DNA from: a virus | Length of the DNA stretch: 11,525 nucleotides | UHGV virus genome: UHGV-1357462 | Reading direction: 5' to 3' (one strand) | Shown: one piece after another, positions 1 through 11,525 of the stretch | Position numbering within the stretch: position 1 is the stretch's first letter | Layout of the letters: each line of letters begins with the position of its first letter | Made by a program: the position numbers and the translations under genes | Notes under the pieces: model-generated | The model's input: only the letters and a program-made list of their open reading frames with translations | Databases searched by the model: none | Told to the model about the DNA's origin: nothing

Positions 1-786
1 CTGATTGACTGTGCAGCCGAACCGACACAGTTTAACGGACGATCGCTGGTACAGATTGCGCAGGCGCTTGCTGCGCCTTTCGGCATTGAGGTGGTGAACA
101 ACAGTGCGCCGTCGGGTGTTATTCCTGATGTCCAGCCTGATCACGGCGAAACGGTGATTGAGGTGATCAACAAAATACTCGGTCAGCAGCAGGCACTGGC
201 TTACGACGACCCGCACGGCAGGCTGGTGATTGGCGGTATTGGCTCAACGCGGGCACATACCGCGCTGGTACTTGGGGAAAACATCCTTTCCTGTGATACG
301 GAGAAGAGTATCCGGGAGCGGTTTTCAGTTTACCAGGTGGCGGGGCAGCGTGCCGGAAACGACGATGATTTCGGTGAGGCCACCACCACCGCGCTGCGGG
401 CCCGCACAGAGGACGCATTTATTGCCCGTTACCGTCCGATGTATATCAGGCAGACAGGGCAGGCCACGGGGGCAGGCTGTATTGCCCGTGCGGACTTTGA
501 AGCCCGACAACGGGCGGCGCGGACGGATGAAACCACCTATGTGGTGCAGGGATGGCGACAGGGTAACGGTACGCTGTGGCAGCCCAACCAGCGGGTGATT
601 GTCTTCGATCCGGTCTGTGGTTTCGACAATACCGAACTGCTTGTCTCGGAAGTCACGTTTACTCAGGACCAGAACGGCACCCTGACGGAAATCCGTGTCG
701 GCCCACCTGATGCTTATCTGCCTGAACCCGAAGCCCCCGGCGCGCGGAAAAAGAAAAAAGCCAGAGTACAGGAGGACCCGTTCTGA
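1..786 (+). CDS. Baseplate hub / tail protein, P2 gpD (late control D) - Mu P-like; 5'-partial, the frame is open from position 1
   Basis: Frame 1 has no stop from nt 1 to the TGA at 784-786; the 91 start in the ORF track is a GTG inside a longer gene. Its position directly upstream of a gpV-like spike gene and its overlap with it (TGATG at 784-788) match the Mu P-Q / P2 D-V order. Family assignment is from recalled similarity, not a search. Confidence 0.6.
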   Translation: MIDCAAEPTQFNGRSLVQIAQALAAPFGIEVVNNSAPSGVIPDVQPDHGETVIEVINKILGQQQALAYDDPHGRLVIGGIGSTRAHTALVLGENILSCDTEKSIRERFSVYQVAGQRAGNDDDFGEATTTALRARTEDAFIARYRPMYIRQTGQATGAGCIARADFEARQRAARTDETTYVVQGWRQGNGTLWQPNQRVIVFDPVCGFDNTELLVSEVTFTQDQNGTLTEIRVGPPDAYLPEPEAPGARKKKKARVQEDPF

Positions 787-1334
787 TGAGGACGATTGAA
801 GCCATGCAGCGACAACTCCTCGGCCTGATTGGGCGGGCTGTGGTGAAAAGCATCAGTGCCGCCACGAAATGTCAGACCGTGGATGTGTCCCTGATTGCCG
901 GTGAACCCAAAGCCGGGGTTGAACATCTTGAACCCTACGGTTTTACCGCAAGGGCAAACAGCGGTGCGGAAGCGGTGGTGTTGTTTCCGGATGGCGACCG
1001 TTCTCATGCGGTGGTTGTTACGGTGTCGGACCGGCGCTACCGCCTGAAAGGGCTGCAGACGGGTGAGGTGGCTGTCTATGACGATCAGGGGCAGTCCGTG
1101 ACGCTGACCCGGGAGGGGATCGTGGTGGACGGTGCAGGTAAGACGATCACGTTTCGCAATGCGCCCAGAGCACGTTTTGAAATGGACCTGGAAGTGACCG
1201 GACAGGTGAAAGACCTGTGCGACTCCGGCGGCACCACCATGTCAGCGATGCGGCTTGCCTATAACGGGCATCGTCACAGAGAGAACGGTCAGGGCAGTAA
1301 CACCGATAAACCTGATAAAGCGATGGAGGCATGA
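786..1334 (+). CDS. Baseplate spike / assembly protein V-like (P2 gpV, Mu gp45)
   Basis: 182-codon ORF whose ATG at 786 overlaps the upstream stop; its size and position between the hub gene and the GP46/J genes fit the conserved baseplate order. Confidence 0.65.
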   Translation: MRTIEAMQRQLLGLIGRAVVKSISAATKCQTVDVSLIAGEPKAGVEHLEPYGFTARANSGAEAVVLFPDGDRSHAVVVTVSDRRYRLKGLQTGEVAVYDDQGQSVTLTREGIVVDGAGKTITFRNAPRARFEMDLEVTGQVKDLCDSGGTTMSAMRLAYNGHRHRENGQGSNTDKPDKAMEA

Positions 1335-1759
1335 TGGAACTGTGGCTGACGGTGAACGGTAAACGCACCTGCGCCAGCTCACCGCTGGATCCGCTGACCC
1401 GCGCCGTGGTGATTTCCCTGTTCACCTGGCGGCGGGCGGAGCCTGATGACAATGCCGACGTCCCGATGGGATGGTGGGGGGATACCTGGCCTGCGGTACA
1501 GAATGACCGTTACGGCTCCCGACTGTGGCTGCTTCAGCGCAGCAAACTGACCAATCAGCTGGTGCAGACGGTAAGGGGGTATATCCGCGAATGCCTGCAA
1601 TGGATGATTGATGACGGCGTGGTGTCCCGTATTGATCTGGATATCCGCCGCACCGGGATTAATGAGCTGGGTAACAGTATCACCCTCTGGCGTCGTGACG
1701 GACCGGTAATGATTTCTTTTGATGATCTGTGGAGTGCGATAACGCATGGCGGACAGTGA
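1331..1759 (+). CDS. Baseplate protein, phage GP46 family (Mu gp46-like)
   Basis: 142-codon ORF overlapping the upstream stop (ATGATGG). GGAGG at 1325-1329 is better spaced for the second ATG at 1334, so the true start may be 1334. Position between V-like and J-like genes. Confidence 0.55.
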   Translation: MMELWLTVNGKRTCASSPLDPLTRAVVISLFTWRRAEPDDNADVPMGWWGDTWPAVQNDRYGSRLWLLQRSKLTNQLVQTVRGYIRECLQWMIDDGVVSRIDLDIRRTGINELGNSITLWRRDGPVMISFDDLWSAITHGGQ

Positions 1760-2804
1760 ATTTCAGCGCCCGACGCTGGCAGAAAATATCAGTATGCTCC
1801 GTAACGATTTATTCGCCAGGCTGGACGTCAGCGACACGCTCCGGCGCATGGATGAAGACGTGCGGGCAAAGGTGTATGCGGCGGCGCTGCATACGGTTTA
1901 CGGGTACATCGATTATCTGGCAATGAACATGCTGCCTGACCTGTGCGATGAGTCCTGGCTGGCGCGACATGCTGCGATGAAACGGTGTCCGCGCAAGGGG
2001 GCCACGGCTGCCAGCGGGTATATGCGCTGGGAAGGTGTCAGCGATGGCCTGAAGGTGACTGCCGGGAGTGTTATTCAGCGCGATGACCTGGTTCAGTACA
2101 CGGCAACTGCCGATGCAACCAGCTCCGGTGGTGTCCTGCGCGTGCCGATCGCCTGCTCAAGTGCAGGCGCGGTCGGTAACGCTGACGACGGTACGTCATT
2201 AATCCTGGTCACGCCGGTTAATGGTCTGCCGTCTTCCGGCGTGGCAGATACCCTGACAGGTGGATTTGATACTGAAGAGCTGGAAACGTGGCGCGCCCGC
2301 GTCATTGAGCGATATTACTGGACGCCTCAGGGCGGGGCTGACGGGGACTATGTCGTCTGGGCTAAAGAAGTGCCCGGCATTACCCGCGCATGGACATACC
2401 GTCACTGGATGGGAACGGGAACTGTCGGTGTGATGATTGCCAGCAGTGACCTGATTAATCCCATTCCGGAAGAATCAACGGAAACGGCGGCAAGACAACA
2501 CATTGAGCCACTGGCCCCGGTGGCAGGCTCTGATTTGTATGTATTCAGGCCGGTGGCACATACGGTGGATTTTCATATCCGCGTGACGCCGGACACACCA
2601 GAAATACGGGCTGCCATTACCGCGGAGTTGCGTTCGTTCCTGCTGCGTGATGGTTATCCGCAGGGAGAACTGAAGGTATCGCGTATCAGTGAGGCGATTT
2701 CCGGTGCGAACGGGGAATACAGCCATCAGTTGCTTGCACCGGTGGACAATATCTCCATTGCGAAAAATGAGCTGGCGGTTCTGGGGACGATTTCATGGAC
2801 GTGA
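1746..2804 (+). CDS. Baseplate J-like protein (Mu gp47 / P2 gpJ family)
   Basis: 352-codon ORF whose ATG at 1746 overlaps the end of the previous gene (translational coupling). Size and conserved position match baseplate wedge protein J. Confidence 0.75.
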
Positions 2805-3379
2805 CAAACGATGATTACATCCGCCTGTTATCGGCACTGTTGCCGCCCGGTCCTGCATGGTCAGCCAGCGATCCGGCGATTGCCGGTGCGGCACCTTCAT
2901 TAACCCGCGTTCATCAGCGTGCGGATGCTCTGATGCGGGAGCTTGATCCGCGCACCACCACCGAGCTGATAAATCGCTGGGAGCGTCTGTGTGGCCTGCC
3001 GGATGAATGTATTCCCGCAGGGACACAGACCCTTCGCCAGCGTCAGCAACGGCTGGATGCGAAGGTTAACCTGGCGGGTGGCATCAACGAGGATTTTTAT
3101 CTTGCACAGCTTGCTGCCCTGGGCAGACCAGATGCCACCATCACGCGATACGACAAAAGCACGTTCACCTGCTCATCGGCCTGTACTGACGCTGTGAATG
3201 CGCCGGAATGGCGGTATTACTGGCAGGTCAACATGCCAGCCGCCACCAACACCACCTGGATGACATGTGGCGATCCCTGTGATTCCGCGCTGCGTATCTG
3301 GGGCGACACCGTTGTCGAGTGTGTGCTTAACAAACTCTGCCCGTCGCATACCTACGTAATTTTTAAATATCCGGAGTAA
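2795..3379 (+). CDS. Tail/baseplate protein, Mu gp48 / e14 YmfQ-like (DUF2313-type)
   Basis: 194-codon ORF overlapping baseplate J by 10 nt, located immediately before the tail-fibre gene as in Mu and e14; has the N-terminal LLPPGPAW segment I associate with this family. Confidence 0.55.
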
Positions 3380-3382
3380 TCC

Positions 3383-4129
3383 ATGCATCGTATAGACACG
3401 AAAACCGCGCAGAAGGATAAGTTCGGCGCGGGTAAGAACGGTTTTACCCGTGGTAACCCCCAGACAGGCACGCCTGCCACCGATCTGGATGATGACTACT
3501 TTGACATGTTGCAGGAAGAACTCTGCAGCGTGGTGGAGGCATCCGGTGCCAGTCTGGAGAAGGCGCGGCACGACCAACTGCTTACCGCGCTTCGTGCGCT
3601 GCTGTTAAGCCGCAAGAATCCGTTTGGCGATATCAAATCGGATGGCACGGTGAAAACGGCTCTCGAAAACCTTGGTTTGGGAGAAGGTGCTCCAGCTATT
3701 GGCGTTCCGTTCTTCTGGCCGTCCGCTGCAATGCCAAATACTGTAATCGACAGCTGGTCCAGTATGGTGTTTTTGAAGTTCAACGGCGCGAAATTCTCTG
3801 CCACTGATTATCCTGTGCTGGCGAAAGTGTTTCCTTCGCTGGTATTACCTGAAGCCCGCGGTGATTTCATTCGTATCTGGGATGACGGGCGAGGTGCAGA
3901 CGGTGGTCGCGAATTATTAAGCTGGCAGGAAGCTACAAACTTTTCTCAGTTTGCCGGGAATATAGGCGGAGGTGCGGGACACGCAATTAACTTTCATGAT
4001 GGCATCGCCGGAAATCAGCCAGGATTTTCACGATTTAATTTCACCAGTAACTCTGTGGGTGATGGTGTGAATTTTGTTGCTGTCAGACCGCGAAATATTG
4101 CATTTAACTTTCTGGTGAGGGCTAAATAA
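3383..4129 (+). CDS. Tail fibre protein: constant N-terminal part (3383-3672) fused to the currently expressed variable C-terminal part (3673-4129)
   Basis: GGAGT RBS at 3372-3376 and ATG at 3383. A 26-bp invertase crossover site lies inside the gene at 3660-3685. The stop TAA overlaps the ATG of the downstream assembly gene. The N-terminus resembles e14/Mu-type side tail fibre proteins. Confidence 0.8.
3660..3685. repeat. Invertase crossover site (pix/gix-like), left copy, inside the tail-fibre gene
   Basis: TTCTCGAAAACC-TT-GGTTTGGGAGAA: two imperfect 12-bp half-sites around a 2-bp core. 3672-3686 is a perfect 15-bp inverted repeat of 5464-5478, and 22 of 26 positions match the inverted right-hand site. 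Confidence 0.7.
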
Positions 4130-4722
4130 TGAAACCTGTTTTTGATGAAAATGGGCTGGCTACAGTGCCGGGCGATATGCGTTGTTTTTATTATGATGCT
4201 GAAACATCTGAGTATACGGGCTGGTCTGATGAATATATTAATACTGGCGTAAGTATGCCCGCCTGTTCCACTGGTATTGACCCGGGCGAAAACATTCCGG
4301 GGAAAGTGGCAGTATTTACGGGTAAGGGATGGAGCCATGAAGAAGACCATCGCAATGAGACTGTTTACTCAACAGAAAATGGCGCAGCTGTTACAGTGGA
4401 TTATATCGGTGCCATCAAAGACGGTTATGTCACGCTTTCACCGTTAACGCCATACGATAAATGGGATGGTGAGAAATGGGTGACGGATACCGAGGCACAG
4501 CATAGCGCCGCAGTAGACGCGGCAGAAGCACAACGTCAGTCACTGATTGATACTGCAATGGCTTCCATTAGTCTGATTCAACTGAAATTGCAGGCCGGAC
4601 GGAAACTGACGCAGGCAGAAACAACCCGACTTAACGCCGTGCTGGATTACATTGACGCGGTGACGGTAACAGATACCAGCACCGCGCCGGATATCATCTG
4701 GCCTGAACTGCCGGAGGCGTAG
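4129..4722 (+). CDS. Tail fibre assembly protein (Tfa / Mu U-like)
   Basis: 197-codon ORF whose start overlaps the tail-fibre stop (TAATG). Its 3' end overlaps the convergent tfa' gene; the C-terminal motif ...TSTAPDIIWPELP mirrors ...TSSAPDIEWPTPP in the - strand paralogue. Confidence 0.75.
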   Translation: MKPVFDENGLATVPGDMRCFYYDAETSEYTGWSDEYINTGVSMPACSTGIDPGENIPGKVAVFTGKGWSHEEDHRNETVYSTENGAAVTVDYIGAIKDGYVTLSPLTPYDKWDGEKWVTDTEAQHSAAVDAAEAQRQSLIDTAMASISLIQLKLQAGRKLTQAETTRLNAVLDYIDAVTVTDTSTAPDIIWPELPEA

Positions 4723-5113
4723 GCCATTCAATATCTGGCGCACTGGAAGTATCGACCAGCTCCAGTGCGTCCAGATAATCCAGCCACAAATTATATTGCG
4801 CCAGTTCCTCACCTTTCAGACGACCAATAGCCGCTTTACCAGGCCATTGCCTGCTGTTCATGTGCTCGTTGGCTTCATTAATAAGTTTTCCTTTTTTCAA
4901 CTCTGCCAATGCAATAAGGTTTTCTTTTGATAAAGGTGGTTGCTCTGTCAAAACCGGATATCCCTCCTGATTGCTGACTATTTTCATGCCATTATCCTGA
5001 CCATCCAGTAGTGACAGCCATTCATCCGTGGTTATCTCAACAGCATCTGAAGGTGCTTTATTTAAATCGGTAAAAAAACCATTTTCTTTTTGTGAATAGA
5101 AGTATCTGTCCAT
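4694..5113 (-). CDS. Alternative tail fibre assembly protein (Tfa' / U'-like), silent in this orientation
   Basis: 139-codon ORF on the - strand, convergent with and overlapping the + strand tfa by 29 nt. It shares the C-terminal motif with the + strand Tfa and lies 3 nt downstream of the alternative fibre-tip ORF. Confidence 0.7.
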   Translation of the reverse strand: MDRYFYSQKENGFFTDLNKAPSDAVEITTDEWLSLLDGQDNGMKIVSNQEGYPVLTEQPPLSKENLIALAELKKGKLINEANEHMNSRQWPGKAAIGRLKGEELAQYNLWLDYLDALELVDTSSAPDIEWPTPPAVQAR

Positions 5114-5116
5114 TTA

Positions 5117-5518
5117 TCAATCTCCAAAAGCAATCCAGTAAGCAAAAGGATTTATTCCTTGCTCAGTCACAGATGACATCAGGGAAAATTGCGATGGTGA
5201 AACAGGTAATGCTGCAAAACTAACCATTGTTGACACACCTGACCGTGCATTATCGTACGATGCAACAACACAATAATTGGTATTGCTGAAAGATATCGGC
5301 AGGGTGATATTTACAGGTGAGCCTAATGGCCCTGATGCTGATATTCCCATTTGAATGATGGTTCCATCAGGCAATTTTCTCCAGCGATTAGAACTCGGAT
5401 TTCTTTTCCAGGCTGACATATCCGGTATCTGATTTTCTCCTGTGCCTACATCCCTTTTCGCCGCTTCTCCCAAACCAACGTTTATGAAAATGCAGAAATA
5501 ACGAGCAAATGGCATCAT
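5117..5518 (-). CDS. Alternative tail-fibre variable C-terminal segment (Sv'-like), lacking its own start in this orientation
   Basis: The - strand ORF spans the right crossover site. The encoded NVGLGEAAK across the site parallels NLGLGEGA at the left site in the expressed fibre. The ATG at 5518 lies outside the invertible segment and is probably not a real start; functional coding would be 5477 down to 5117 after inversion. Confidence 0.6.
   Translation of the reverse strand: MMPFARYFCIFINVGLGEAAKRDVGTGENQIPDMSAWKRNPSSNRWRKLPDGTIIQMGISASGPLGSPVNITLPISFSNTNYCVVASYDNARSGVSTMVSFAALPVSPSQFSLMSSVTEQGINPFAYWIAFGD
5465..5490. repeat. Invertase crossover site (pix/gix-like), right copy, just upstream of the invertase gene
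   Basis: TTCTCCCAAACC-AA-CGTTTATGAAAA: same 12-2-12 architecture as Hin/Gin/Cin/Pin sites, in inverted orientation relative to 3660-3685, with the core AA versus TT. Confidence 0.7.
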
Positions 5519-5544
5519 TCCTGCTTTTGTCAGGGAGATCTACC

Positions 5545-5901
5545 ATGCTTATTGGCTATGTACGTGTGTCAACAAATGACCAGAACACAGATCTACAGCG
5601 TAATGCGCTGAACTGTGCAGGATGCGAGCTGATTTTTGAAGACAAGATAAGCGGTACAAAGTCTGAAAGGCCGGGACTGAAAAAACTGCTCAGGACATTA
5701 TCGGAAGGTGACACTCTGGTTGTCTGGAAGCTGGATCGGCTGGGGCGTAGTATGCGGCATCTGGTCATTCTGGTTGAGGAGTTGCGCGAACGTGGCGTTA
5801 ATTTTCGCAGCCTAACGGATGCTATTGATATCAGCACGTCGATGGGGCGTTTTTTCTTTTATGTGATGGGGGCCTTGGCTGAAATTGAGTTTCAGGATTA
5901 A
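5545..5901 (+). pseudogene. pin: Pin/Gin/Hin-family serine DNA invertase, truncated: catalytic domain only, C-terminal HTH DNA-binding domain missing
   Basis: Starts MLIGYVRVSTNDQ (active-site Ser region) with AGGGAG upstream. Recalled similarity to e14 PinE runs to about codon 115 (…GALAEIE), then the frame ends after FQD at 5899-5901. Full-length invertases are about 185-190 aa. Neither of the other two frames downstream encodes a recognisable invertase C-terminus. Confidence 0.6.
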
Positions 5902-6061
5902 GCGATATCGTACTCACCCTTGGTCCCACCTAATAAATCTGAAGAACGGAAGCGCTGCCAGATGATGGTGGTGGCTACAATTATTCACACTCAATCTTCG
6001 GAGCAATCACGTACATCATAATGATGTTAGGAATACGGAGTTTAATGACTGTCCAGTGATG

Positions 6062-6091
6062 TAAAAAGAAACCCCGGCGTAGTAGCCGAGG
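6062..6091 (-). terminator. Rho-independent terminator downstream of the peptidase gene
   Basis: On the - strand: CCTCGGC-TACTAC-GCCGGGG (7-bp GC-rich stem with one G-U pair, 6-nt loop) followed by TTTCTTTTT, beginning about 25 nt after the stop. Confidence 0.55.
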
Positions 6092-6114
6092 TCCTCAATC
6101 AGAAACTACAATAT

Positions 6115-7119
6115 TCACTGAGTGCCTTCATCTGGTTGCTCTGCTGGTAAGGTTCCAGCCTCTTCTTCAGTTTCCGCATGTTTTCCATCGCCTCCCTGGA
6201 CAGGTTCATCCCTTGGCGGTTCTGCTCTTCCTGAATTTTGGTCAGAGATTTCATCTCCTTCCTGAATTCTGCTGTTGTCATGGGAATCTTCCTCTGCGTT
6301 AGTTGTTTCATATTGTTTTTTAGGAGTTAAATCTTTAATCATCGGTTTGTCGAAGATAGAGATTTCGCCTGACGAAATCATTTCACCAAGAACTTCGTAC
6401 AGGTTGGCTGCAAAATCTGTAGGACTCTCAACATGGTTGAATAGTTCCCTCGCCTCTTTACGGTCTATCACAAAACCATGGGCTGGATATCCAGCGATCA
6501 ACTTGCCTAATGAGCTTTCCTTAAGATTTTTCGAGTGACTATTCAAACGTTCCCCATAGGAAAGCGCTATGTTCATTGCTCGCTGATGCTCCCCGAGTTT
6601 GATAGGGTCTATCTGTGAGGCCATCGGCGATATGATTGCTTCAGTAAGCTTAGCAGCAATATCTGCAGACATCTTTGTGCTAATTTGGTTTCTGTACTTT
6701 ATATCAAGTACGTATGATCTAAAGGTCGAAATAGCGCACTCTTTTATTTCATCAATCGCCGTTGCGATAACAAGGCCCGAGCTCAATTCGCCGATCTCAT
6801 CATTTTTCTTAAGTTGGATATCTAGAGGGCCAAGCTCACCCATATCACCAATCACGAGCTTATGAGCGGCGACAGCCATCAATGTTCCAGCACTTTTGCA
6901 AGGGCCAACAACTAGAACGGTGATGTGCTCATAGTTGTGTTGCAAAGCGCGGCCAATTCTATATCCTGCGCTGGGATCACCGCCATAGGTAGCGACGCAA
7001 AAAAGAACATTTTTTTGTAAACCATGGTTAGTTTTTCTTTCTTTAATCGCTTTGGTGATGTCGTGATGACCAGAGCGGTGAACATCGCCTATGTATACGT
7101 AAACGTCTGTATCTTGCAT
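6115..7119 (-). CDS. ClpP/crotonase-fold serine peptidase (ClpP / S49 / SDH-like) with a long acidic C-terminal tail
   Basis: 334-codon ORF with AGGGA RBS. By eye the core aligns to ClpP: VATYGGDPSAGYRIGRALQ vs INSPGGVITAGMSIYDTMQ, and ITVLVVGPCKSAGTLMAVAAH vs [21 protein letters not shown], placing a Ser at the nucleophile position. The last 60 or so residues are D/E/G/P-rich. No His at the ClpP His position, so possibly a Ser-Lys dyad. Confidence 0.55.
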   Translation of the reverse strand: MQDTDVYVYIGDVHRSGHHDITKAIKERKTNHGLQKNVLFCVATYGGDPSAGYRIGRALQHNYEHITVLVVGPCKSAGTLMAVAAHKLVIGDMGELGPLDIQLKKNDEIGELSSGLVIATAIDEIKECAISTFRSYVLDIKYRNQISTKMSADIAAKLTEAIISPMASQIDPIKLGEHQRAMNIALSYGERLNSHSKNLKESSLGKLIAGYPAHGFVIDRKEARELFNHVESPTDFAANLYEVLGEMISSGEISIFDKPMIKDLTPKKQYETTNAEEDSHDNSRIQEGDEISDQNSGRAEPPRDEPVQGGDGKHAETEEEAGTLPAEQPDEGTQ

Positions 7120-7427
7120 TTTAATCCCTATGAATAAAATGGTTGAATTTAATGCTGTTCCTCAGCCAAAGCACTGTATCGATAACCAAAATACCTCAGA
7201 TTTGTCGAGAAAACTATCTGGAAAATTAGGCTAACTCTTTGAATCTTCGGAATGCAAAAAAGATAATTTCTCTGGATGGGCGCTAAGTTGATGTGTAAGT
7301 ATGACGGTTAGAACGGTCTCGGAAACCGCAGGCACGTCGTATGCAAGAACGTGCTGCGGCTGGCTGGCGAACTTTCGATAGTGCGAGTATTGAATGATTT
7401 CCAGCCGTTACCGATTTTACGTGTTAA

Positions 7428-7676
7428 TTAGTGAACAAACCACTCGTCAGCAGATTCCCAGGTATCTTTCAGAGTCTCCTGAACAAAAGTTTTTGCAGAA
7501 TCCTTATCTGCGGTGCGTGTAACAGAAAGGCCATCGTTGCTGGTGGCTTTTACGATCACCTCTACATCGTCATAACGTTTACTGATGCGTCGGGTTAATT
7601 CTTCCTTTAACGCATCCACAGCACCGGTTGGCATTTTAGTCATTTTTTCTTTGGCTATGCAGATTTCAATACGCAT
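7428..7676 (-). CDS. dinI: DinI-family SOS-response protein (prophage-borne DinI homologue)
   Basis: 82 codons starting MRIEICIAK and ending …[17 protein letters not shown], closely matching recalled E. coli DinI (MRIEVTIAK…QETWESADDWFV). AGAGGGA RBS, and two LexA boxes in its promoter. Confidence 0.8.
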
Positions 7677-7689
7677 AAAAGTCCCTCTA

Positions 7690-7709
7690 CACTGTGTTTG
7701 TATACAGTA
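7690..7709 (-). promoter_or_regulatory. LexA (SOS) box, promoter-proximal
   Basis: - strand TACTGTATACAAACACAGTG, i.e. CTGT-N8-ACAG with flanking TA, close to the consensus TACTGT(AT)4ACAGTA; about 14 nt upstream of the dinI-like start and overlapping the predicted transcript start region. Confidence 0.7.
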
Positions 7710-7712
7710 TTA

Positions 7713-7741
7713 TTTTTAACTGTATGAATAAACAGTGTCAA
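7713..7741 (-). promoter_or_regulatory. Sigma70-type promoter for the dinI-like gene
   Basis: - strand TTGACA (7741-7736), 17-nt spacer, TAAAAA (7718-7713). Perfect -35 and acceptable -10, with both LexA boxes placed for repression. Confidence 0.5.
7718..7737 (-). promoter_or_regulatory. Second LexA (SOS) box, in the -35/-10 spacer
   Basis: - strand CACTGTTTATTCATACAGTT, CTGT-N8-ACAG, immediately abutting the -35 hexamer. Confidence 0.65.
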
Positions 7742-7760
7742 TAGAACAAAGATTGCTGCA

Positions 7761-8178
7761 TGTACAAATGTTCTTTGGCTACAAATACACCTACTGATCA
7801 TGTTCTGCTATGCTCTGATACCTCCAAAATGTACAATCAGCGGCATGAATTTTTCTTTGTACATATGATTGTACATAATTAAAGAGACAACAATTATGAC
7901 AAGCCTTTTGGCCGCAGAGGTAGCGAAAAGAAGAACCTTTGCAATTATTTCTCACCCCAATAATTAAGTCCAAATTAAAGCTCTTTTACTCTTTCAAAAT
8001 CCTTTCAGTTAATTGAAGTTGAGCTATATAACTCATTTAAATACATTTGTTTATGTAGCTTCTTTAATTGAAAACTCTTTCATGTAACTTTAAATCGATC
8101 AGCTTGCTTTCATCAAAAACCTGTACATATGCTTGTACATAATGTACAAAACAGCAGAGGTGTTTTGCGATTTGTACA
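7761..8178. repeat. AT-rich array of eight TGTACA(W)A motifs including a 22-bp direct repeat; candidate integrase arm sites / attP or operator array
   Basis: TGTACA at 7761, 7830, 7858, 7870, 8122, 8134, 8143 and 8173. The 22-mers at 7858-7879 (TGTACATATGATTGTACATAAT) and 8122-8143 (TGTACATATGCTTGTACATAAT) match at 21 of 22 positions. Sits between the dinI promoter and the integrase start. Confidence 0.6.
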
Positions 8179-8187
8179 AGGTGAGTA

Positions 8188-9411
8188 ATGGCGCTGTCTG
8201 ATGCGTGGTTGCGTTCAGTCGTTGGAAAGGAACGTGATAAGGTTTTGGTTAAATCCGATCGTGATGGTCTGTCTGTCAGAGTATCACCGAAAGGTCGCGT
8301 AGTGTTCCAATATCGTTATCAATGGGCAGGGAAAGGTGAGCGTCTTGATATCGGAACTTACCCGGCAACTGGATTAAAAGAGGCCAGAGAAGAAGTTATC
8401 CGTCTTCGTGGTGAACTCGAGTCAAACCGTAATCCACGATTGGTCAAGCAGGCTGAAAAACGAAAAGCTACTGAAGCCATGACGGTAGAGTCTGTGATCC
8501 GTGCTTGGTATGAAGCATATTGTGTAAAAAATAAAAAAGGTTCTGAACAGATACTTCGCTCGTTTGAGCTGCACCTGTTCTCTAAAATCGGGAATATCCC
8601 TCACGATGCAGCTACATTGCATGATTGGTTAGAAGTCCTGGAGCCTCTTAGCACTAAGACTCCAGCAATAGCAGACCGATTGCTAATTAACGCAAAGCAG
8701 GCCCATGTCTGGGCGTATAAGAGAAAGCTCATTGAAACTCGCCCGCTGTCGGATATCACGGGTAAAGATATGGATATCCGTAAAGGTCAGAAGAAACGGT
8801 TTCTGACACATGATGAAATTAAAATCCTTTATGCTGCGATCGATGGTTCTCGAATGGTTCCTAAATACCGGGCCTTCATTAAACTATTGCTGCATTTTGG
8901 TTGCCGTAGTTCAGAGCTAATTACCGCCCGGGTGGACGATTTTGATTTCATTAATAAAGTATGGACTGTACCACCAGAACGACATAAGACAGGGGAGATA
9001 ACAGGCGAACCGCTAAAGCGGCCCATTATTGAACCGGTTGAAGAGCTTATAAAGTACGCTATCTCTATGAACAATGGTTCCGATATGCTTTTTACTAAGG
9101 AAGGAAGCAGGGAACCCGTTGGTCGGACATCATTGCAGTCGCTGCCTTACAATTTAATGCAGTACGCATGGCGGTGTTTAGGATATCAATTCCCTCATTG
9201 GTCTCTTCATGACTTGAGACGTACAGCTCGAACAAATTTTTCTGATCTTACTGCGCCTCATATCGCAGAAATTATGCTTGGTCATAAGCTGCCAGGGGTA
9301 TGGCAAGTTTATGATAAGAGCGATTATCTAGAAGAACAGCGTAAAGCTTACCTGGCATGGTGGAAGAGGGTTGAATCGATTGTTAATTGTACTATCTCTG
9401 ATTCAAACTGA
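8188..9411 (+). CDS. int: Tyrosine integrase, P4-type, with an N-terminal arm-binding (DUF4102-like) domain
   Basis: 407 codons with AAGGTGAG RBS. N-terminal …GLSVRVSPKGRVVFQYRY… is typical of P4-family integrases. Catalytic-domain hallmarks are present: LHFGCRSSEL (Arg), HDLRRTART (His-x-x-Arg) and LGHK…VYDKSDY (His and Tyr). Confidence 0.9.
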   Translation: MALSDAWLRSVVGKERDKVLVKSDRDGLSVRVSPKGRVVFQYRYQWAGKGERLDIGTYPATGLKEAREEVIRLRGELESNRNPRLVKQAEKRKATEAMTVESVIRAWYEAYCVKNKKGSEQILRSFELHLFSKIGNIPHDAATLHDWLEVLEPLSTKTPAIADRLLINAKQAHVWAYKRKLIETRPLSDITGKDMDIRKGQKKRFLTHDEIKILYAAIDGSRMVPKYRAFIKLLLHFGCRSSELITARVDDFDFINKVWTVPPERHKTGEITGEPLKRPIIEPVEELIKYAISMNNGSDMLFTKEGSREPVGRTSLQSLPYNLMQYAWRCLGYQFPHWSLHDLRRTARTNFSDLTAPHIAEIMLGHKLPGVWQVYDKSDYLEEQRKAYLAWWKRVESIVNCTISDSN

Positions 9412-9697
9412 CGGTTTGTATCACCTGAACATAACCAAATCTCCTAGCACACTTTGAGCGAGATGTGAGCGTTAAGTTTACGCCATTGTGTTGACATAAG
9501 AGGGGGGCGGGTATCGATATCATCACTATCCCTATGCCCCTAAATCGCTCCTGCCATTTGATAAATGCAGATGTTTACCACCAAATGTTTTTGATACTAT
9601 AGGTCGATTCATGATTTACCTAGAAACTTAGTTGTAACGAAAACTTCTTAACGGACACTATCTGGATAAAGTTAGTTTTTTATTTAAGAGGGTTAAC

Positions 9698-10417
9698 ATG
9701 TCAAAGTTAAAAAATGAACCATTAGTAAGGGTATCAGAAGAAGACGGAATAGAAATAAGGAAGATCCAATATCCAGATAATACGATAGAAAGAATTTATA
9801 AGCAGAAAGGTGTAATATTACCACGAATACCTTTAAAAGGCCGCTTTGTAGAACAATATGTGGCCTTACAGTTGCTTGATAAAGATCTTCGGAATGTTAT
9901 TGGTTGGGAGAATATAATAAAAAACATTTGTAATAACATTAATAAAGAACAACACTTTATTTATCCGGATTTAGAAAAGAATCTAATATTAAAGTCTTTA
10001 TTTATATCAAAAGTTGTTACTTACGGTAAGTGTTTTACAGAGGCGAAAGGGCGTCGATTCACATTGCAGAGAAAGCATGTGCCAGAAAAATACAGAGATT
10101 TACATGATTCTATTATGAATGTTAGACATAACTTTGCTGCCCATAAAGGTGAATTCGAATATGATCAATGTGGCTTGGTTTTAATATTGCCGGGGACCAA
10201 GAAGAAAAGGTACTATCATATTTTTTCAGAGCTCAATCAAATAAATTACGGTAATAATGAGGAAGATGATGAACGTTTTTTTATGTTATATGATTCACTG
10301 CGTGAAGTCATTAAAGAAAAACAAGATAAATTAATTGATAAAATATACGCTGAAAAGATTCATACTCAAACAATGGAGTATTGGTTGAGCCGAGCAGGAA
10401 AAGAAACAGAGATTTAA
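9698..10417 (+). CDS. Hypothetical protein, very AT-rich orphan cargo gene; weak HEPN-like R-x5-H motif (VRHNFAAH)
   Basis: 239 codons with a strong RBS (AAGAGGG, 10 nt before the ATG). Clearly lower G+C than all neighbours. No family recognised beyond an R-x5-H spacing compatible with the loose HEPN Rx4-6H signature. Sits between the integrase and the AlpA-like gene. Confidence 0.7.
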   Translation: MSKLKNEPLVRVSEEDGIEIRKIQYPDNTIERIYKQKGVILPRIPLKGRFVEQYVALQLLDKDLRNVIGWENIIKNICNNINKEQHFIYPDLEKNLILKSLFISKVVTYGKCFTEAKGRRFTLQRKHVPEKYRDLHDSIMNVRHNFAAHKGEFEYDQCGLVLILPGTKKKRYYHIFSELNQINYGNNEEDDERFFMLYDSLREVIKEKQDKLIDKIYAEKIHTQTMEYWLSRAGKETEI

Positions 10418-10699
10418 TTTGTTCAGTATATAAAAGCTAATTTTTAAGGAGTAATTTTAAGATGATTAAAGCTGATTACATTGCGATAGGTACTCTACGA
10501 CTAACTTTTCAACAAGATTAAGGGGGTAATCAATTTTATTTGTATCAATGGTATGACATTTCTTGGTGATAATGTTTTGATCTTATCGATTCATGTCATA
10601 TGGTCATTGGTGACGTCCGCTCTTGGTAAAGAGTGGACGCTCAGATTAGGTTTGGCATCTAAGCATAGATGTGTCAGCTCACATCTAAGCTAATACATA

Positions 10700-10894
10700 T
10701 TACTCAATCACTCCCGCAAATCTGTAAATCTTGTGTGATGCCCATTTATTTGGGCAGGATTTAATATCAGGATCTGGAAAGTCAGGCCTGTATTTCTGAC
10801 CAGTTCTCCTGTTTACGCTGTTCCAGCGAAGAACTGTCGATACTGAAACACCACAGAAATCGGCGACTTGTTTAGTTGTCATTAAGTTGTTCAT
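10700..10894 (-). CDS. AlpA/Xis-family helix-turn-helix DNA-binding protein (excisionase / transcriptional regulator-like)
   Basis: 64 codons. N-terminal TTKQVADFCGVSVSTVLRW looks like an HTH. GGAGG RBS, and the start overlaps the upstream gene's stop (TAATG). Small size and position next to the integrase region fit this family. Confidence 0.6.
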   Translation of the reverse strand: MNNLMTTKQVADFCGVSVSTVLRWNSVNRRTGQKYRPDFPDPDIKSCPNKWASHKIYRFAGVIE

Positions 10895-11525
10895 TACTTC
10901 ACCTCCTGCGGCGGCTCCGGTAGTGGCATCCAGTGGGTTACTTTCGATGCCTGTTCTTCCTCATTGTCAGTAACTGCCCACCATTTGTTTCTCGACCAAT
11001 CGTAATACCCTTCGAAGGTATCGCACTCAGTCCAGCCGTAAGACTTCCCCCAACACCAAACATACTGTTTATCATTCGGCATTCGCTCACTACAGCTTAT
11101 CCAACCACCCGGACTTACCGGAGAGTTGCCAGACAGCGCGTTCTGCAGCCGTTCCAGCTTAACGTATTCCTGAACCCTGTTTCCGTCGCACACCTGAAGC
11201 CATTGCGCAGCCTTTTGCGCATCAGTGTGAAAGGCACAAGTGCGACCGTCATCAAATTGCATTTCGTAGAGGTCAGCAACTTGTTCAAACTGCGTGTGTG
11301 GTGACTTGTAAGTTTGGTTTACAGGTTCGGCACCATGAAGCATGGCGGCGCGGCAGGCGTTCCAGCCTTCATCAAAACCGACTATGCCATTATTTAAAGA
11401 CGGACGAGCATCTGGCACTACCGGCACTGGCTTGGCTATATATAGCGGCTGAACATACCAGCCCTTTGATAACCAACTGTCAGCAATGTTTTTACACCTC
11501 GTTATTGCCGGAATACCTAAGCCAT
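10894..11525 (-). CDS. Phage early-region protein with a C-terminal DUF551-like domain; 5'-partial, the frame is open to the window end
   Basis: The reading frame has no stop between 11525 and the ORF-track start, which is a GTG with no good RBS, so the gene most likely starts beyond the window. The W-rich C-terminus (WISCSERMPNDKQYVWCWG…THWMPLPEPP) is typical of DUF551 domains in lambdoid early regions. Translationally coupled to the AlpA-like gene. Confidence 0.55.
   Translation of the reverse strand, partial: GLGIPAITRCKNIADSWLSKGWYVQPLYIAKPVPVVPDARPSLNNGIVGFDEGWNACRAAMLHGAEPVNQTYKSPHTQFEQVADLYEMQFDDGRTCAFHTDAQKAAQWLQVCDGNRVQEYVKLERLQNALSGNSPVSPGGWISCSERMPNDKQYVWCWGKSYGWTECDTFEGYYDWSRNKWWAVTDNEEEQASKVTHWMPLPEPPQEVK

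What the first reader, a model, noticed from the sequence alone, without database searches (positions are those of the whole stretch)
6115..7119. ClpP-fold peptidase with an unusual acidic C-terminal tail and possibly a Ser-Lys rather than Ser-His-Asp active site
The core aligns by eye to the ClpP glycine-rich loop and nucleophile-elbow region, but the position of ClpP's catalytic His lacks a His (GPLDIQL). The last 60 or so residues are strongly D/E/G/P-rich and predicted disordered, reminiscent of DNA-mimic or interaction tails. This combination suggests a non-canonical regulatory protease rather than a housekeeping ClpP.
Basis: inference. Interest (0 to 1): 0.6.

Follow-up and report, generated by a model that had tools for sequence, protein, structure and literature searches.

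The report
Prophage SDH-type ClpP-fold serine protease
This is a real prophage accessory gene for a soluble ClpP-fold serine protease of the little-studied "SDH" type, whose relatives often sit directly behind the prophage repressor gene; its biological role is untested.

Summary
The ORF at 6115-7119 (minus strand, 334 aa) is a real gene. RefSeq already names the identical protein "SDH family Clp fold serine proteinase".

**Confirmed**
- Ser76 aligns with the ClpP and NfeD nucleophile.
- There is no His at the ClpP His position (GPLD100IQ).
- Residues 263-334 are acidic (net -15), and residues 271-334 are modelled as disordered.

**Not supported**
- The Ser-Lys idea fails. In 264 homologues, Ser76 is conserved in 263 and Asp100 and His214 in all 264. 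Lys105 is replaced in 20 and Lys75 in 8. This fits a permuted Ser-Asp-His set.
- The tail is not unusual. 243 of 264 relatives have a tail of at least 30 residues, usually acidic but sometimes basic.

**New here**
- The gene moves as an ORF-sized cassette.
- In lambdoid prophages it sits directly after cI and before a terminator and N, which is the rexAB slot.
- 23 of 81 diverse loci carry a CI/XRE regulator nearby.
- In this window it lies 308 bp downstream of a dinI gene with two LexA boxes.

My best reading is a lysogen-expressed accessory protease, probably for phage exclusion. That function is inferred, not shown. Interest is moderate.

The parts
6115..7119 (-). Gene for the 334-aa SDH-type ClpP-fold serine protease (identical to RefSeq WP_001766808.1).
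   Evidence: ORF. RefSeq annotation of the identical locus. Full-length match to phrog_21683, E 1e-198. Pfam SDH_protease 27 bits and NCBIfam Clp_like_SDH 35.9 bits, both below their curated cut-offs.
6334..7119 (-). Folded core, residues 1-262: a ClpP/crotonase-fold domain plus an inserted helical bundle (helices 115-144, 148-168, 172-196).
6892..6894 (-). Codon of Ser76, the predicted nucleophile (C-K-S-A-G-T elbow).
   Evidence: Conserved in 263 of 264 homologues. Aligns with the ClpP 'AASMG' serine and with the 1510-N 'AASAGT' serine. PDB entry 6m4b carries Ala at that position.
6820..6822 (-). Codon of Asp100 (G-P-L-D-I-Q), the predicted triad acid, near the position of the ClpP catalytic His.
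   Evidence: Conserved in 264 of 264 homologues. Its position relative to ClpP is judged by eye from the strand pattern of the model.
6478..6480 (-). Codon of His214 (Y-P-x-H-G-F-V-I-D-R), the predicted general base.
   Evidence: Conserved in 264 of 264 homologues. Its equivalence to ClpP Asp171 is my inference from motif and secondary structure; sequence alignment did not confirm it.
6118..6333 (-). Disordered acidic C-terminal tail, residues 263-334, ending in the clade-conserved motif G-T-L-P-A-E-Q-P-D-E.
   Evidence: Composition and charge. pLDDT below 50 from residue 271. Tails are present family-wide. The motif G-[TA]-[LIV]-P-x-[EQ]-Q-P-D recurs in enterobacterial relatives.
6069..6094 (-). 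Terminator-like GC hairpin with a T-run, 21 nt after the stop codon.
   Evidence: Consensus scan. A matching hairpin follows the homologue in the lambdoid locus L009.
7120..7427 (-). 308-bp spacer between dinI and the protease gene. It holds a 14-bp hairpin without a T-run, and the scan found no consensus promoter.
   Evidence: Sequence, scan and fold, z-score -0.67. Only part of it (window 7323 upward) is shared with phage 2H10, which lacks the protease gene.
7428..7676 (-). dinI-like gene (82 aa) upstream on the same strand.
   Evidence: Pfam DinI E 1e-19. phrog_189.
7692..7741 (-). SOS-type control region of dinI: two perfect LexA-box consensus sites (7692-7707 and 7720-7735) overlapping a TTGACA-18-AAAAAT promoter-like site.
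   Evidence: Pattern search gave two exact CTGT-N8-ACAG matches. Promoter scan.
5891..6064 (+). Frameshifted C-terminal remnant of an S24 (LexA/CI-like) peptidase gene, convergent with the protease gene and travelling with it.
   Evidence: RefSeq pseudogene annotation in L001 and L008, mapped to window coordinates. It is part of the block shared at 94.6% with L099. It shows no similarity to the CI genes found upstream of homologues.

Best explanation
The gene encodes a soluble, stand-alone serine protease of the ClpP fold that belongs to the SDH-type branch. Ser76 is the nucleophile on the ClpP-type elbow. The invariant Asp100 and His214 complete a triad whose order along the chain (Ser-Asp-His) is permuted relative to ClpP (Ser-His-Asp). 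A disordered, usually acidic C-terminal tail of about 70 residues follows the core.

The gene is a mobile prophage accessory gene (a 'moron'). In related lambdoid prophages it sits in the cI-[gene]-terminator-N position that rexAB occupies in lambda, so there it is most likely transcribed with the repressor in the lysogen. In this window it lies between the tail-fibre invertase and attP, 308 bp downstream of a dinI gene with two LexA boxes, and it may be read through from that SOS promoter.

My committed mechanism is that it is a latent protease kept in the lysogen that acts against superinfecting phage (exclusion or abortive infection) by cleaving a phage or host protein. The tail would serve as a self-processed or autoinhibitory segment, or as a recruiting segment.

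- Shown: the gene, the fold, the conservation pattern, the tail and the synteny.
- Inferred: the triad geometry, co-transcription, the defence role and the role of the tail.
For: **Fold**
- The best viral structural matches are annotated SDH proteinases.

**Family**
- 145 of 147 relatives hit PF01972 (best E 6.8e-15), and 147 of 147 hit NF047768 (best E 9.7e-20).

**Active site**
- Ser76 is conserved in 263 of 264 homologues, and Asp100 and His214 in 264 of 264.
- Lys105 and Lys75 are not invariant.

**Soluble protein**
- There is no signal peptide. The only hydrophobic peak is the buried elbow.

**Synteny**
- E. coli lambdoid L009 reads cro<-OR->cI->SDH->terminator->N.
- In Klebsiella Rac-like prophages an HTH repressor precedes SDH.
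- In Bartonella an HTH-S24 gene precedes SDH.
- In Klebsiella phage ST13-OXA48phi12.4 the gene is divergent from an XRE+ImmA module.
- 23 of 81 non-redundant loci from many phyla have a CI/XRE regulator nearby. In 17 of them it lies upstream on the same strand within 1.5 kb. Six loci have ImmA and 11 have an integrase.

**Cassette behaviour**
- Homology to cI-linked relatives starts and stops at the ORF borders.
- The allele is present in only 21 of 5426 complete E. coli genomes.

**Defence neighbourhood**
- The 150 nearest other neighbours include type I, IIG and IV restriction enzymes, BstA, IetS, mad2, PD-Lambda-2_B and several PDC candidates. AIPR and Eco57I lie near the Klebsiella copies.
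- Precedent: BstA, an abortive-infection protein, lies downstream of the prophage cI gene and is highly expressed during lysogeny; its authors presume that it shares the repressor's promoter (PMC8585504).
Against: - No model of a known defence system matches this protein or 147 relatives.
- No paper on this family was found.
- About 70% of the diverse loci show no repressor next to the gene, and several neighbours are housekeeping genes. The defence association is therefore suggestive, not strong.
- Sequence alignment of the C-terminal half to ClpP is not significant.
- AlphaFold gives no confident docking of the tail onto the core.
- In this window no promoter was identified for the gene, and a hairpin lies between dinI and it.
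Confidence: 0.4

Rival explanations
1. It is a lysis-lysogeny or induction regulator. The protease would cleave a component of the switch or of the SOS pathway (repressor, antirepressor, CII-like protein, DinI or RecA-associated factor). That would make it an analogue of the ImmA/IrrE anti-repressor proteases encoded next to their repressors.
For: - The gene recurs next to three kinds of immunity module: HTH-S24, a short HTH repressor and XRE+ImmA.
- In this window it sits beside a dinI gene with LexA boxes and an S24 remnant.
- The Bartonella CI-like partners have Thr in place of the S24 nucleophile Ser.
- An identical protease travels with the conserved C-terminal domain of cI while the DNA-binding domain is swapped.
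Against: - The partner repressors belong to unrelated families.
- 12 of the 14 partner repressors aligned keep the G-x-S-M serine, and most also keep the Lys needed for self-cleavage.
- About 70% of loci have no repressor nearby.
- The cassette moves without its flanks.
- Here the gene is kept although the adjacent S24 gene is only a remnant.
Confidence: 0.2
2. It is cargo with a general proteolytic or peptide-clearing role. The protein would be a cytoplasmic SppA/NfeD-like peptidase that benefits the host or the phage in ways unrelated to phage conflict or the switch, for example stress proteostasis or processing of a host protein.
For: - The family is very broadly distributed: 397 species-level genomic places across many phyla.
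- Many neighbours are housekeeping genes.
- The closest solved relatives are peptidases of that kind.
Against: - There is no membrane anchor, unlike SppA and NfeD.
- The distribution in E. coli is sporadic and prophage-bound.
- Repressors, integrases and defence genes are enriched nearby.
Confidence: 0.15
3. One reading: an S49-like Ser-Lys dyad protease, with Ser76 paired with Lys105 (or Lys75), as in SppA and NfeD 1510-N.
For: - Lys105 is 92% conserved and lies in a low-confidence loop after the G-E-L-G strand. This is reminiscent of Lys138 at the base of the flexible L2 loop of 1510-N (PMC3795559).
- The best PDB sequence hit is 1510-N.
Against: - Lys105 is Arg in 12 homologues and N, L, T or another residue in 8 more. 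Lys75 is F, A, G, M or another residue in 8.
- Asp100 and His214 are conserved in 264 of 264.
Confidence: 0.07
4. It is a displaced or degenerate phage head-maturation (prohead) protease, or a non-catalytic ClpP-fold scaffold.
For: There are weak hits to the ClpP-related head maturation protease models: NF045542 at 28.7 bits, and phrog_1684 and phrog_53.
Against: - The score is far below the cut-off of 120 bits.
- The gene lies outside the head module, in immunity or att-proximal slots.
- The invariant Ser, Asp and His argue for catalysis.
Confidence: 0.03

Closest known systems
SDH-type ClpP-like serine proteinases (Pfam PF01972 SDH_protease; NCBIfam NF047768 Clp_like_SDH)
   Same: - It has the ClpP fold, and Ser, Asp and His are invariant in that order along the chain.
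- It is the best family hit for this protein and for nearly all relatives.
- The best structural matches among viral proteins carry this annotation.
- RefSeq gives the identical protein this name.
   Different: - The scores are below both curated cut-offs (27 against 31.3 bits; 35.9 against 250 bits).
- Only the N-terminal half (residues 20-106) aligns.
- This branch adds a helical bundle and a long disordered tail.
- No member of the SDH family has, to my knowledge, a tested function or a solved structure; none appeared in the PDB searches.
NfeD/STOPP protease 1510-N of Pyrococcus horikoshii (PDB 2deo, 3bpp) and SppA (MEROPS S49)
   Same: - It is the best sequence-profile hit in the PDB (E 1.1e-5), with Ser76 aligned on the catalytic serine.
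- It needs no ATPase partner.
- The B. subtilis SppA structure 4kwb has its own C-termini bound in the active sites, which is a precedent for a self-processed tail (title of the hit).
   Different: [quoted passage not shown] Here no Lys is invariant, but an Asp and a His are.
- Those enzymes are membrane-bound, while this protein has no membrane segment.
ClpP (MEROPS S14)
   Different: - There is no His about 25 residues after the Ser.
- Only 26 of 147 relatives touch PF00574, at E<0.01.
- No ClpX- or ClpA-type partner gene lies nearby.
- The protein has an extra helical insertion and a tail.
Lysogen-expressed exclusion genes in the repressor operon (lambda rexAB; Salmonella BTP1 bstA)
   Same: [quoted passage not shown] That rexAB occupies this slot in lambda is established knowledge.
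   Different: There is no sequence or fold relationship, and no phenotype is known for this protein. This is a positional analogy only.
ImmA/IrrE anti-repressor metalloproteases (ImmR-ImmA modules)
   Same: Both are proteases encoded next to a mobile-element repressor.
   Different: - ImmA is an HEXXH metalloprotease, not a serine protease.
- In six loci and one phage the SDH gene co-occurs with an XRE+ImmA pair rather than replacing it.

Membership tests
ClpP/crotonase fold proteases (ClpP, SppA, NfeD) | The ClpP-type alpha/beta fold, with the nucleophile Ser at the N-terminus of a helix after a beta strand and a preceding G-G oxyanion loop. | tested here: met
   - AlphaFold model with pLDDT 77, confident over most of the core.
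- The G46-G47 and S76 alignments.
SDH-type proteinases (PF01972 / NF047768) | A score at or above the curated family cut-off. | tested here: not met
   - PF01972 scores 27.0 bits against a cut-off of 31.3.
- NF047768 scores 35.9 bits against a cut-off of 250.
- Relatives reach at best E 6.8e-15 and 9.7e-20.
- This is therefore a divergent sister branch, not the curated equivalog.
SDH-type proteinases (PF01972 / NF047768) | Catalytic residues in the order Ser, Asp, His along the chain (the Pfam description, recalled from memory). | tested here: inconclusive
   Ser76, Asp100 and His214 are the only Ser/Asp/His set that is conserved in nearly every homologue (263 to 264 of 264) and placed on the ClpP-fold core. 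I could not align Asp100 and His214 to the catalytic residues of canonical SDH members, and I could not measure distances in the model.
SDH-type proteinases (PF01972 / NF047768) | Structural resemblance to annotated members over most of the chain. | tested here: met
   The top BFVD matches are 'Serine dehydrogenase proteinase' proteins of giant viruses, with E 9e-9 to 1e-7 over 230-290 aligned columns.
ClpP (S14) | A Ser-His-Asp triad with the His about 25 residues after the Ser. | tested here: not met
   The sequence there is G-P-L-D-I-Q, and no His occurs between residues 84 and 178 of the query.
ClpP (S14) | Works with a Clp ATPase (ClpX, ClpA or ClpC). | not testable with these tools
   No AAA+ gene is adjacent in the annotated contexts examined. 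Physical interaction cannot be tested here.
SppA/NfeD (S49) Ser-Lys peptidases | An invariant general-base Lys. | tested here: not met
   Lys105 is K in 244, R in 12, N in 3 and another residue in 5. Lys75 is K in 256 of 264.
SppA/NfeD (S49) Ser-Lys peptidases | Membrane anchoring. | tested here: not met
   There is no N-terminal hydrophobic segment. The highest 19-residue hydropathy (1.59, residues 66-84) is the buried strand and elbow of the fold.
Known anti-phage defence systems (PADLOC-DB 2.0) | A match to a model of a described or candidate defence protein. | tested here: not met
   No hit for this protein. No family-wide hit for 147 relatives.
Phage head-maturation proteases (ClpP-related, NF045542) | A score at or above the cut-off, and a location in the head-assembly module. 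| tested here: not met
   The score is 28.7 bits against a cut-off of 120. The gene lies between the tail-fibre invertase and attP here, and after cI elsewhere.

The most novel reading that the evidence does not exclude
This branch of SDH-type proteases may be a previously unrecognised, widespread, single-gene prophage function housed in the repressor operon (the rexAB/bstA slot). It would be either a new protease-based abortive-infection or exclusion system whose disordered tail is the phage-sensing or autoinhibitory element, or a new serine-protease counterpart of ImmA that links the lysogenic switch to a signal other than RecA.
Probability: 0.3. Interest if true: 0.7.

Novelty: new member of a known kind. 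Interest (0 to 1): 0.42.

Why it matters
The SDH-type ClpP-fold proteases are a large family with a name but no tested function. The branch that contains this protein alone spans more than 3000 clusters at 50% identity. This window, together with its relatives, gives a concrete and testable handle on the family. The gene is a cassette that repeatedly lands in the lysogen-expressed slot behind prophage repressors, where exclusion genes such as rexAB and bstA live. It has an invariant Ser-Asp-His set and a disordered tail found across the family. If a phenotype is found, it would assign a role to a whole family. It would also add a protease-based mechanism to prophage-encoded immunity or to control of the lysogenic switch.

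Tried and rejected
1. **Residue-level check of the triad.** Model coordinates are not exposed, so no distances could be measured. The His214 to ClpP Asp171 equivalence therefore remains a by-eye inference.
2. **Single-sequence PDB search.** It found nothing. Only profiles did.
3. **S24 remnant.** I tested whether the remnant next to the gene is what is left of a cI gene of the cI-SDH arrangement. It is on the opposite strand and shows no similarity to any upstream CI, so I rejected this.
4. **Single conserved partner gene.** Only 7 of 80 immediate upstream neighbours are S24 proteins, and no other family recurs in more than 6 loci. I rejected an obligatory two-gene system.
5. **Partner repressors without catalytic residues.** I tested whether they had lost their own catalytic residues, which would suggest dependence on the protease. 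Most keep them; only the Bartonella ones have Thr.
6. **A second copy of the 113-bp repeat** that brackets the cassette in L099. None is present in the window.
7. **Literature searches** on the family names, SppA with prophage, and ClpP-like with defence returned nothing relevant.
8. **The afdb50 structure library** was unavailable.
Full report
**1. What is at the coordinates**

- The window carries Mu-like tail and baseplate genes (91-5113), an invertible tail-fibre segment and a truncated Pin/Hin-type invertase (5509-5901).
- Next come the ORF in question (6115-7119, minus strand, 334 aa) and a dinI-like gene (7428-7676, minus strand).
- The window ends with a tyrosine integrase (8188-9411) and its neighbours.
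- The ORF has an AGGGA ribosome-binding sequence 7 nt upstream, and the N-termini of homologues align with its Met1.
- The same DNA occurs in 21 of 5426 complete E. coli genomes. There RefSeq annotates the identical protein (WP_001766808.1) as 'SDH family Clp fold serine proteinase'.
- The window is colinear with the packaged genome of Escherichia phage 2H10 across attP, in the order tail fibre, invertase, slot, dinI, attP, int, a 239-aa ORF and xis.
- In 2H10 the slot holds a 78-aa ORF. Here it holds an S24 pseudogene remnant plus the protease gene.
- In the complete genomes the prophage ends at dinI, next to prfC. The window is therefore either a tandem-lysogen junction or a phage contig in vegetative order.

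**2.

- Family searches give Pfam SDH_protease (27 bits) and NfeD1b_N, NCBIfam Clp_like_SDH (35.9 bits), and a ClpP-related head protease model (28.7 bits). All are below their cut-offs.
- There is also a full-length match to phrog_21683, a family of unknown function (E 1e-198).
- A 30-sequence alignment gave an AlphaFold model with mean pLDDT 77, largely confident over residues 1-270 (except a loop at about 101-120) and below 50 for 271-334.
- In the viral structure library the top matches are giant-virus proteins annotated 'Serine dehydrogenase proteinase'.
- A 147-sequence profile finds 1510-N at E 1.1e-5 and ClpP at 8.6e-4. It places G46-G47 on their P-G-G loop and Ser76 on the serine of AASAGT and AASMG. 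PDB entry 6m4b has Ala at exactly that serine.
- The stretch where ClpP has its His reads G-P-L-D100-I-Q-L.
- The tail (263-334) has 21 D/E against 6 K/R and pI 4.1.

**3. Catalytic residues**

I aligned the query and 263 homologues (36-99% identical to it; many of them stand for 50%-identity clusters).

| Residue | Conservation (of 264) |
|---|---|
| Ser76 | 263 |
| Asp100 | 264 |
| His214 | 264 |
| Lys105 | 244 K, 12 R, 3 N, 5 other |
| Lys75 | 256 |
| His61 | 165 |
| His178 | 134 |

(All.)

- A general-base Lys would not tolerate these replacements. The Ser-Lys reading is therefore disfavoured, and a Ser-Asp-His set, permuted relative to ClpP, is favoured.
- From the model's strand-helix-strand pattern at residues 216-232 and the motif F-V-I-D-R-K-E-A against ClpP F-L-S-A-P-E-A, I infer that His214 takes roughly the place of ClpP Asp171. 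I also infer that Asp100 lies two residues past the place of ClpP His122.
- This is inference only. Alignment programs did not confirm it, and I could not measure distances.
- Other invariant positions (Gln102, Ser114, Tyr188, Phe227) remain unexplained.

**4. The tail**

- A long, low-complexity tail is the rule in this family. 243 of 264 relatives have a tail of at least 30 residues. The median length is 63, with 9% hydrophobic residues and 45% G/P/S/T/N/Q.
- The median net charge is -6, but the range is -20 to +9, and 11 tails have a net charge of +5 or more.
- The sequence is not conserved, except that enterobacterial relatives share a motif near the end, G-[TA]-[LIV]-P-x-[EQ]-Q-P-D. Here it reads G-T-L-P-A-E-Q-P-D.
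- Some relatives carry a similar extension at the N-terminus.
- A fixed DNA-mimic role does not fit the charge range.
- A flexible regulatory, recruiting or self-processed segment does fit. The SppA structure with its own C-termini in the active sites (4kwb, listed) is a precedent. However, AlphaFold docks nothing with confidence.

**5. Genomic context of relatives**

- The family is large. There are 2850 hits at E<=1e-3, 3071 cluster representatives and 397 species-level genomic places. They span Proteobacteria, Chlorobi, Chloroflexi, Cyanobacteria, Bacteroidota, Acidobacteria, Planctomycetes, Saccharimonadales and others.
- In an E. coli lambdoid prophage (protein P0036, 59% identical) the order is cII, cro <- -> cI, SDH gene, N, cIII, kil, gam, bet, exo.
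- In that prophage no terminator lies between cI and the gene. A strong hairpin with a T-run follows the gene, and a promoter-like site precedes N. This is the arrangement of lambda cI-rexA-rexB-tImm-PL-N, which is established knowledge.
- In Klebsiella Rac-like prophages (77% identical) the gene follows a short HTH repressor that is divergent from ydaS/ydaT.
- In Bartonella it follows an HTH-S24 gene at a 78-bp gap.
- In Klebsiella phage ST13-OXA48phi12.4 it is divergent from an XRE+ImmA pair, with dinI 2 kb away.
- In a Burkholderia P2-like phage it follows the integrase.
- With crude ORF calling and iterated profiles, 23 of 81 non-redundant loci have a CI/XRE-type regulator nearby. In 17 it lies upstream on the same strand within 1.5 kb. 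Six loci have an ImmA-like HEXXH protein and 11 have a tyrosine recombinase.
- Among the 150 nearest other neighbours are type I, IIG and IV restriction enzymes, BstA, IetS, mad2, PD-Lambda-2_B and several PDC candidates. There are also plain housekeeping genes.
- No partner is obligatory.

**6. Is the protease tied to a particular repressor?**

Probably not.
- The CI proteins in front of relatives that are 59% identical to each other are barely related.
- An identical protease follows cI alleles with different DNA-binding domains.
- 12 of the 14 upstream S24 repressors aligned keep the G-x-S-M serine, and most also keep the Lys used for self-cleavage; the two Bartonella proteins have Thr.
- DNA homology between the window and the cI-linked relatives begins at the start codon and ends at the stop. 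The ORF therefore moves as a cassette.

**7. The arrangement in this window**

- A block of about 1.9 kb (window 5862-7741) is shared at 94.6% with a different, lambda-like prophage integrated at dusA (L099). In L099 the block is bracketed by a 113-bp direct repeat.
- On the minus strand the block holds two exact LexA-box consensus sites (7720-7735 and 7692-7707) overlapping a TTGACA-18-AAAAAT promoter-like site. It then holds dinI, a 308-bp spacer, the protease gene, a terminator-like hairpin (6094-6069) and the S24 remnant.
- The spacer has a 14-bp hairpin without a T-run, and no consensus promoter was found in it.
- Read-through from the SOS promoter is therefore possible but not shown.

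**8. Best explanation and rivals**

- The identity part, a soluble stand-alone SDH-type ClpP-fold serine protease with a disordered tail, carried as a prophage moron, is well supported.
- The functional part is inference from position. Genes in the cI operon and in att-proximal slots are typically lysogen-expressed accessory genes, often for exclusion of other phages. Lambda rexAB is established knowledge, and bstA is documented in PMC8585504.
- I commit to a protease-based exclusion or abortive-infection role at about 0.4.
- The main rival is a protease acting on the lysogenic switch or SOS components, at about 0.2. A generic peptidase cargo is at about 0.15.
- The Ser-Lys dyad version is at about 0.07, and a head protease or inactive scaffold at about 0.03.
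- Neither PADLOC nor the literature searches show that this family has been studied.

**9. Novelty and verdict**

- The protein is already named by RefSeq and falls into a named family, although below the curated thresholds. It is a new member of a known kind, not a new kind.
- What deserves follow-up is the repeated placement behind prophage repressors, the invariant Ser-Asp-His set and the family-wide disordered tail. Together they make a function for the SDH family directly testable.

Noticed in passing
window 7692-7741: Two exact LexA-box consensus sites (CTGT-N8-ACAG, at 7692-7707 and 7720-7735) overlap a TTGACA-18-AAAAAT promoter-like site just upstream of the prophage dinI-like gene. 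This points to SOS control of dinI and possibly of the protease gene downstream.
   Followed up: partly
window 5509-6064: A Pin/Hin-type serine invertase is cut off after 130 aa. It abuts a frameshifted C-terminal remnant of an S24 (LexA/CI-like) peptidase gene. The remnant is unrelated to the cI genes that precede the protease gene in other prophages.
   Followed up: partly
window 7323-11525 compared with L100 (phage 2H10): The window runs straight across an attP-type junction (dinI, att, int, a 239-aa ORF, xis), as in the packaged genome of Escherichia phage 2H10. In complete E. coli genomes the same prophage end is followed by prfC, and the match stops near window 7957. The window is therefore a tandem-lysogen junction or a phage contig in vegetative order.
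   Followed up: partly
window 9698-10417: A 239-aa ORF in a stretch of 32% G+C lies right after the integrase. It has no Pfam, NCBIfam or PADLOC hit and matches only phrog_8440 (unknown function). It is conserved at the same place in phage 2H10 (gp29), so it is another candidate accessory gene.
   Followed up: no
L099 4841-4953 and about 6345-6457: In a dusA-integrated lambda-like prophage, the dinI-protease-S24-remnant block is bracketed by a 113-bp direct repeat (88% identical) made of the 3' end of dinI and the sequence after it. This hints at how the cassette was inserted. The window has only one copy.
   Followed up: partly
L002 5227-5922 and L021 4227-4916: The Bartonella CI-like proteins immediately upstream of the protease gene have Thr instead of the S24 nucleophile Ser (G-D-T-M-E). 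They may not self-cleave.
   Followed up: no
L009 5130-5834 compared with L011 3280-3987: The same protease protein (P0036) follows two cI alleles. Their C-terminal 154 residues are 95% identical, but their N-terminal DNA-binding parts do not align. The recombination breakpoint therefore lies inside cI.
   Followed up: no
window 6118-6150 (tail residues about 324-334) and relatives P0001-P0041: Enterobacterial relatives share a short motif near the C-terminus, G-[TA]-[LIV]-P-x-[EQ]-Q-P-D, within otherwise unconserved tails. In the 60%-identity clade a basic stretch precedes it, where this protein has an acidic one.
   Followed up: partly
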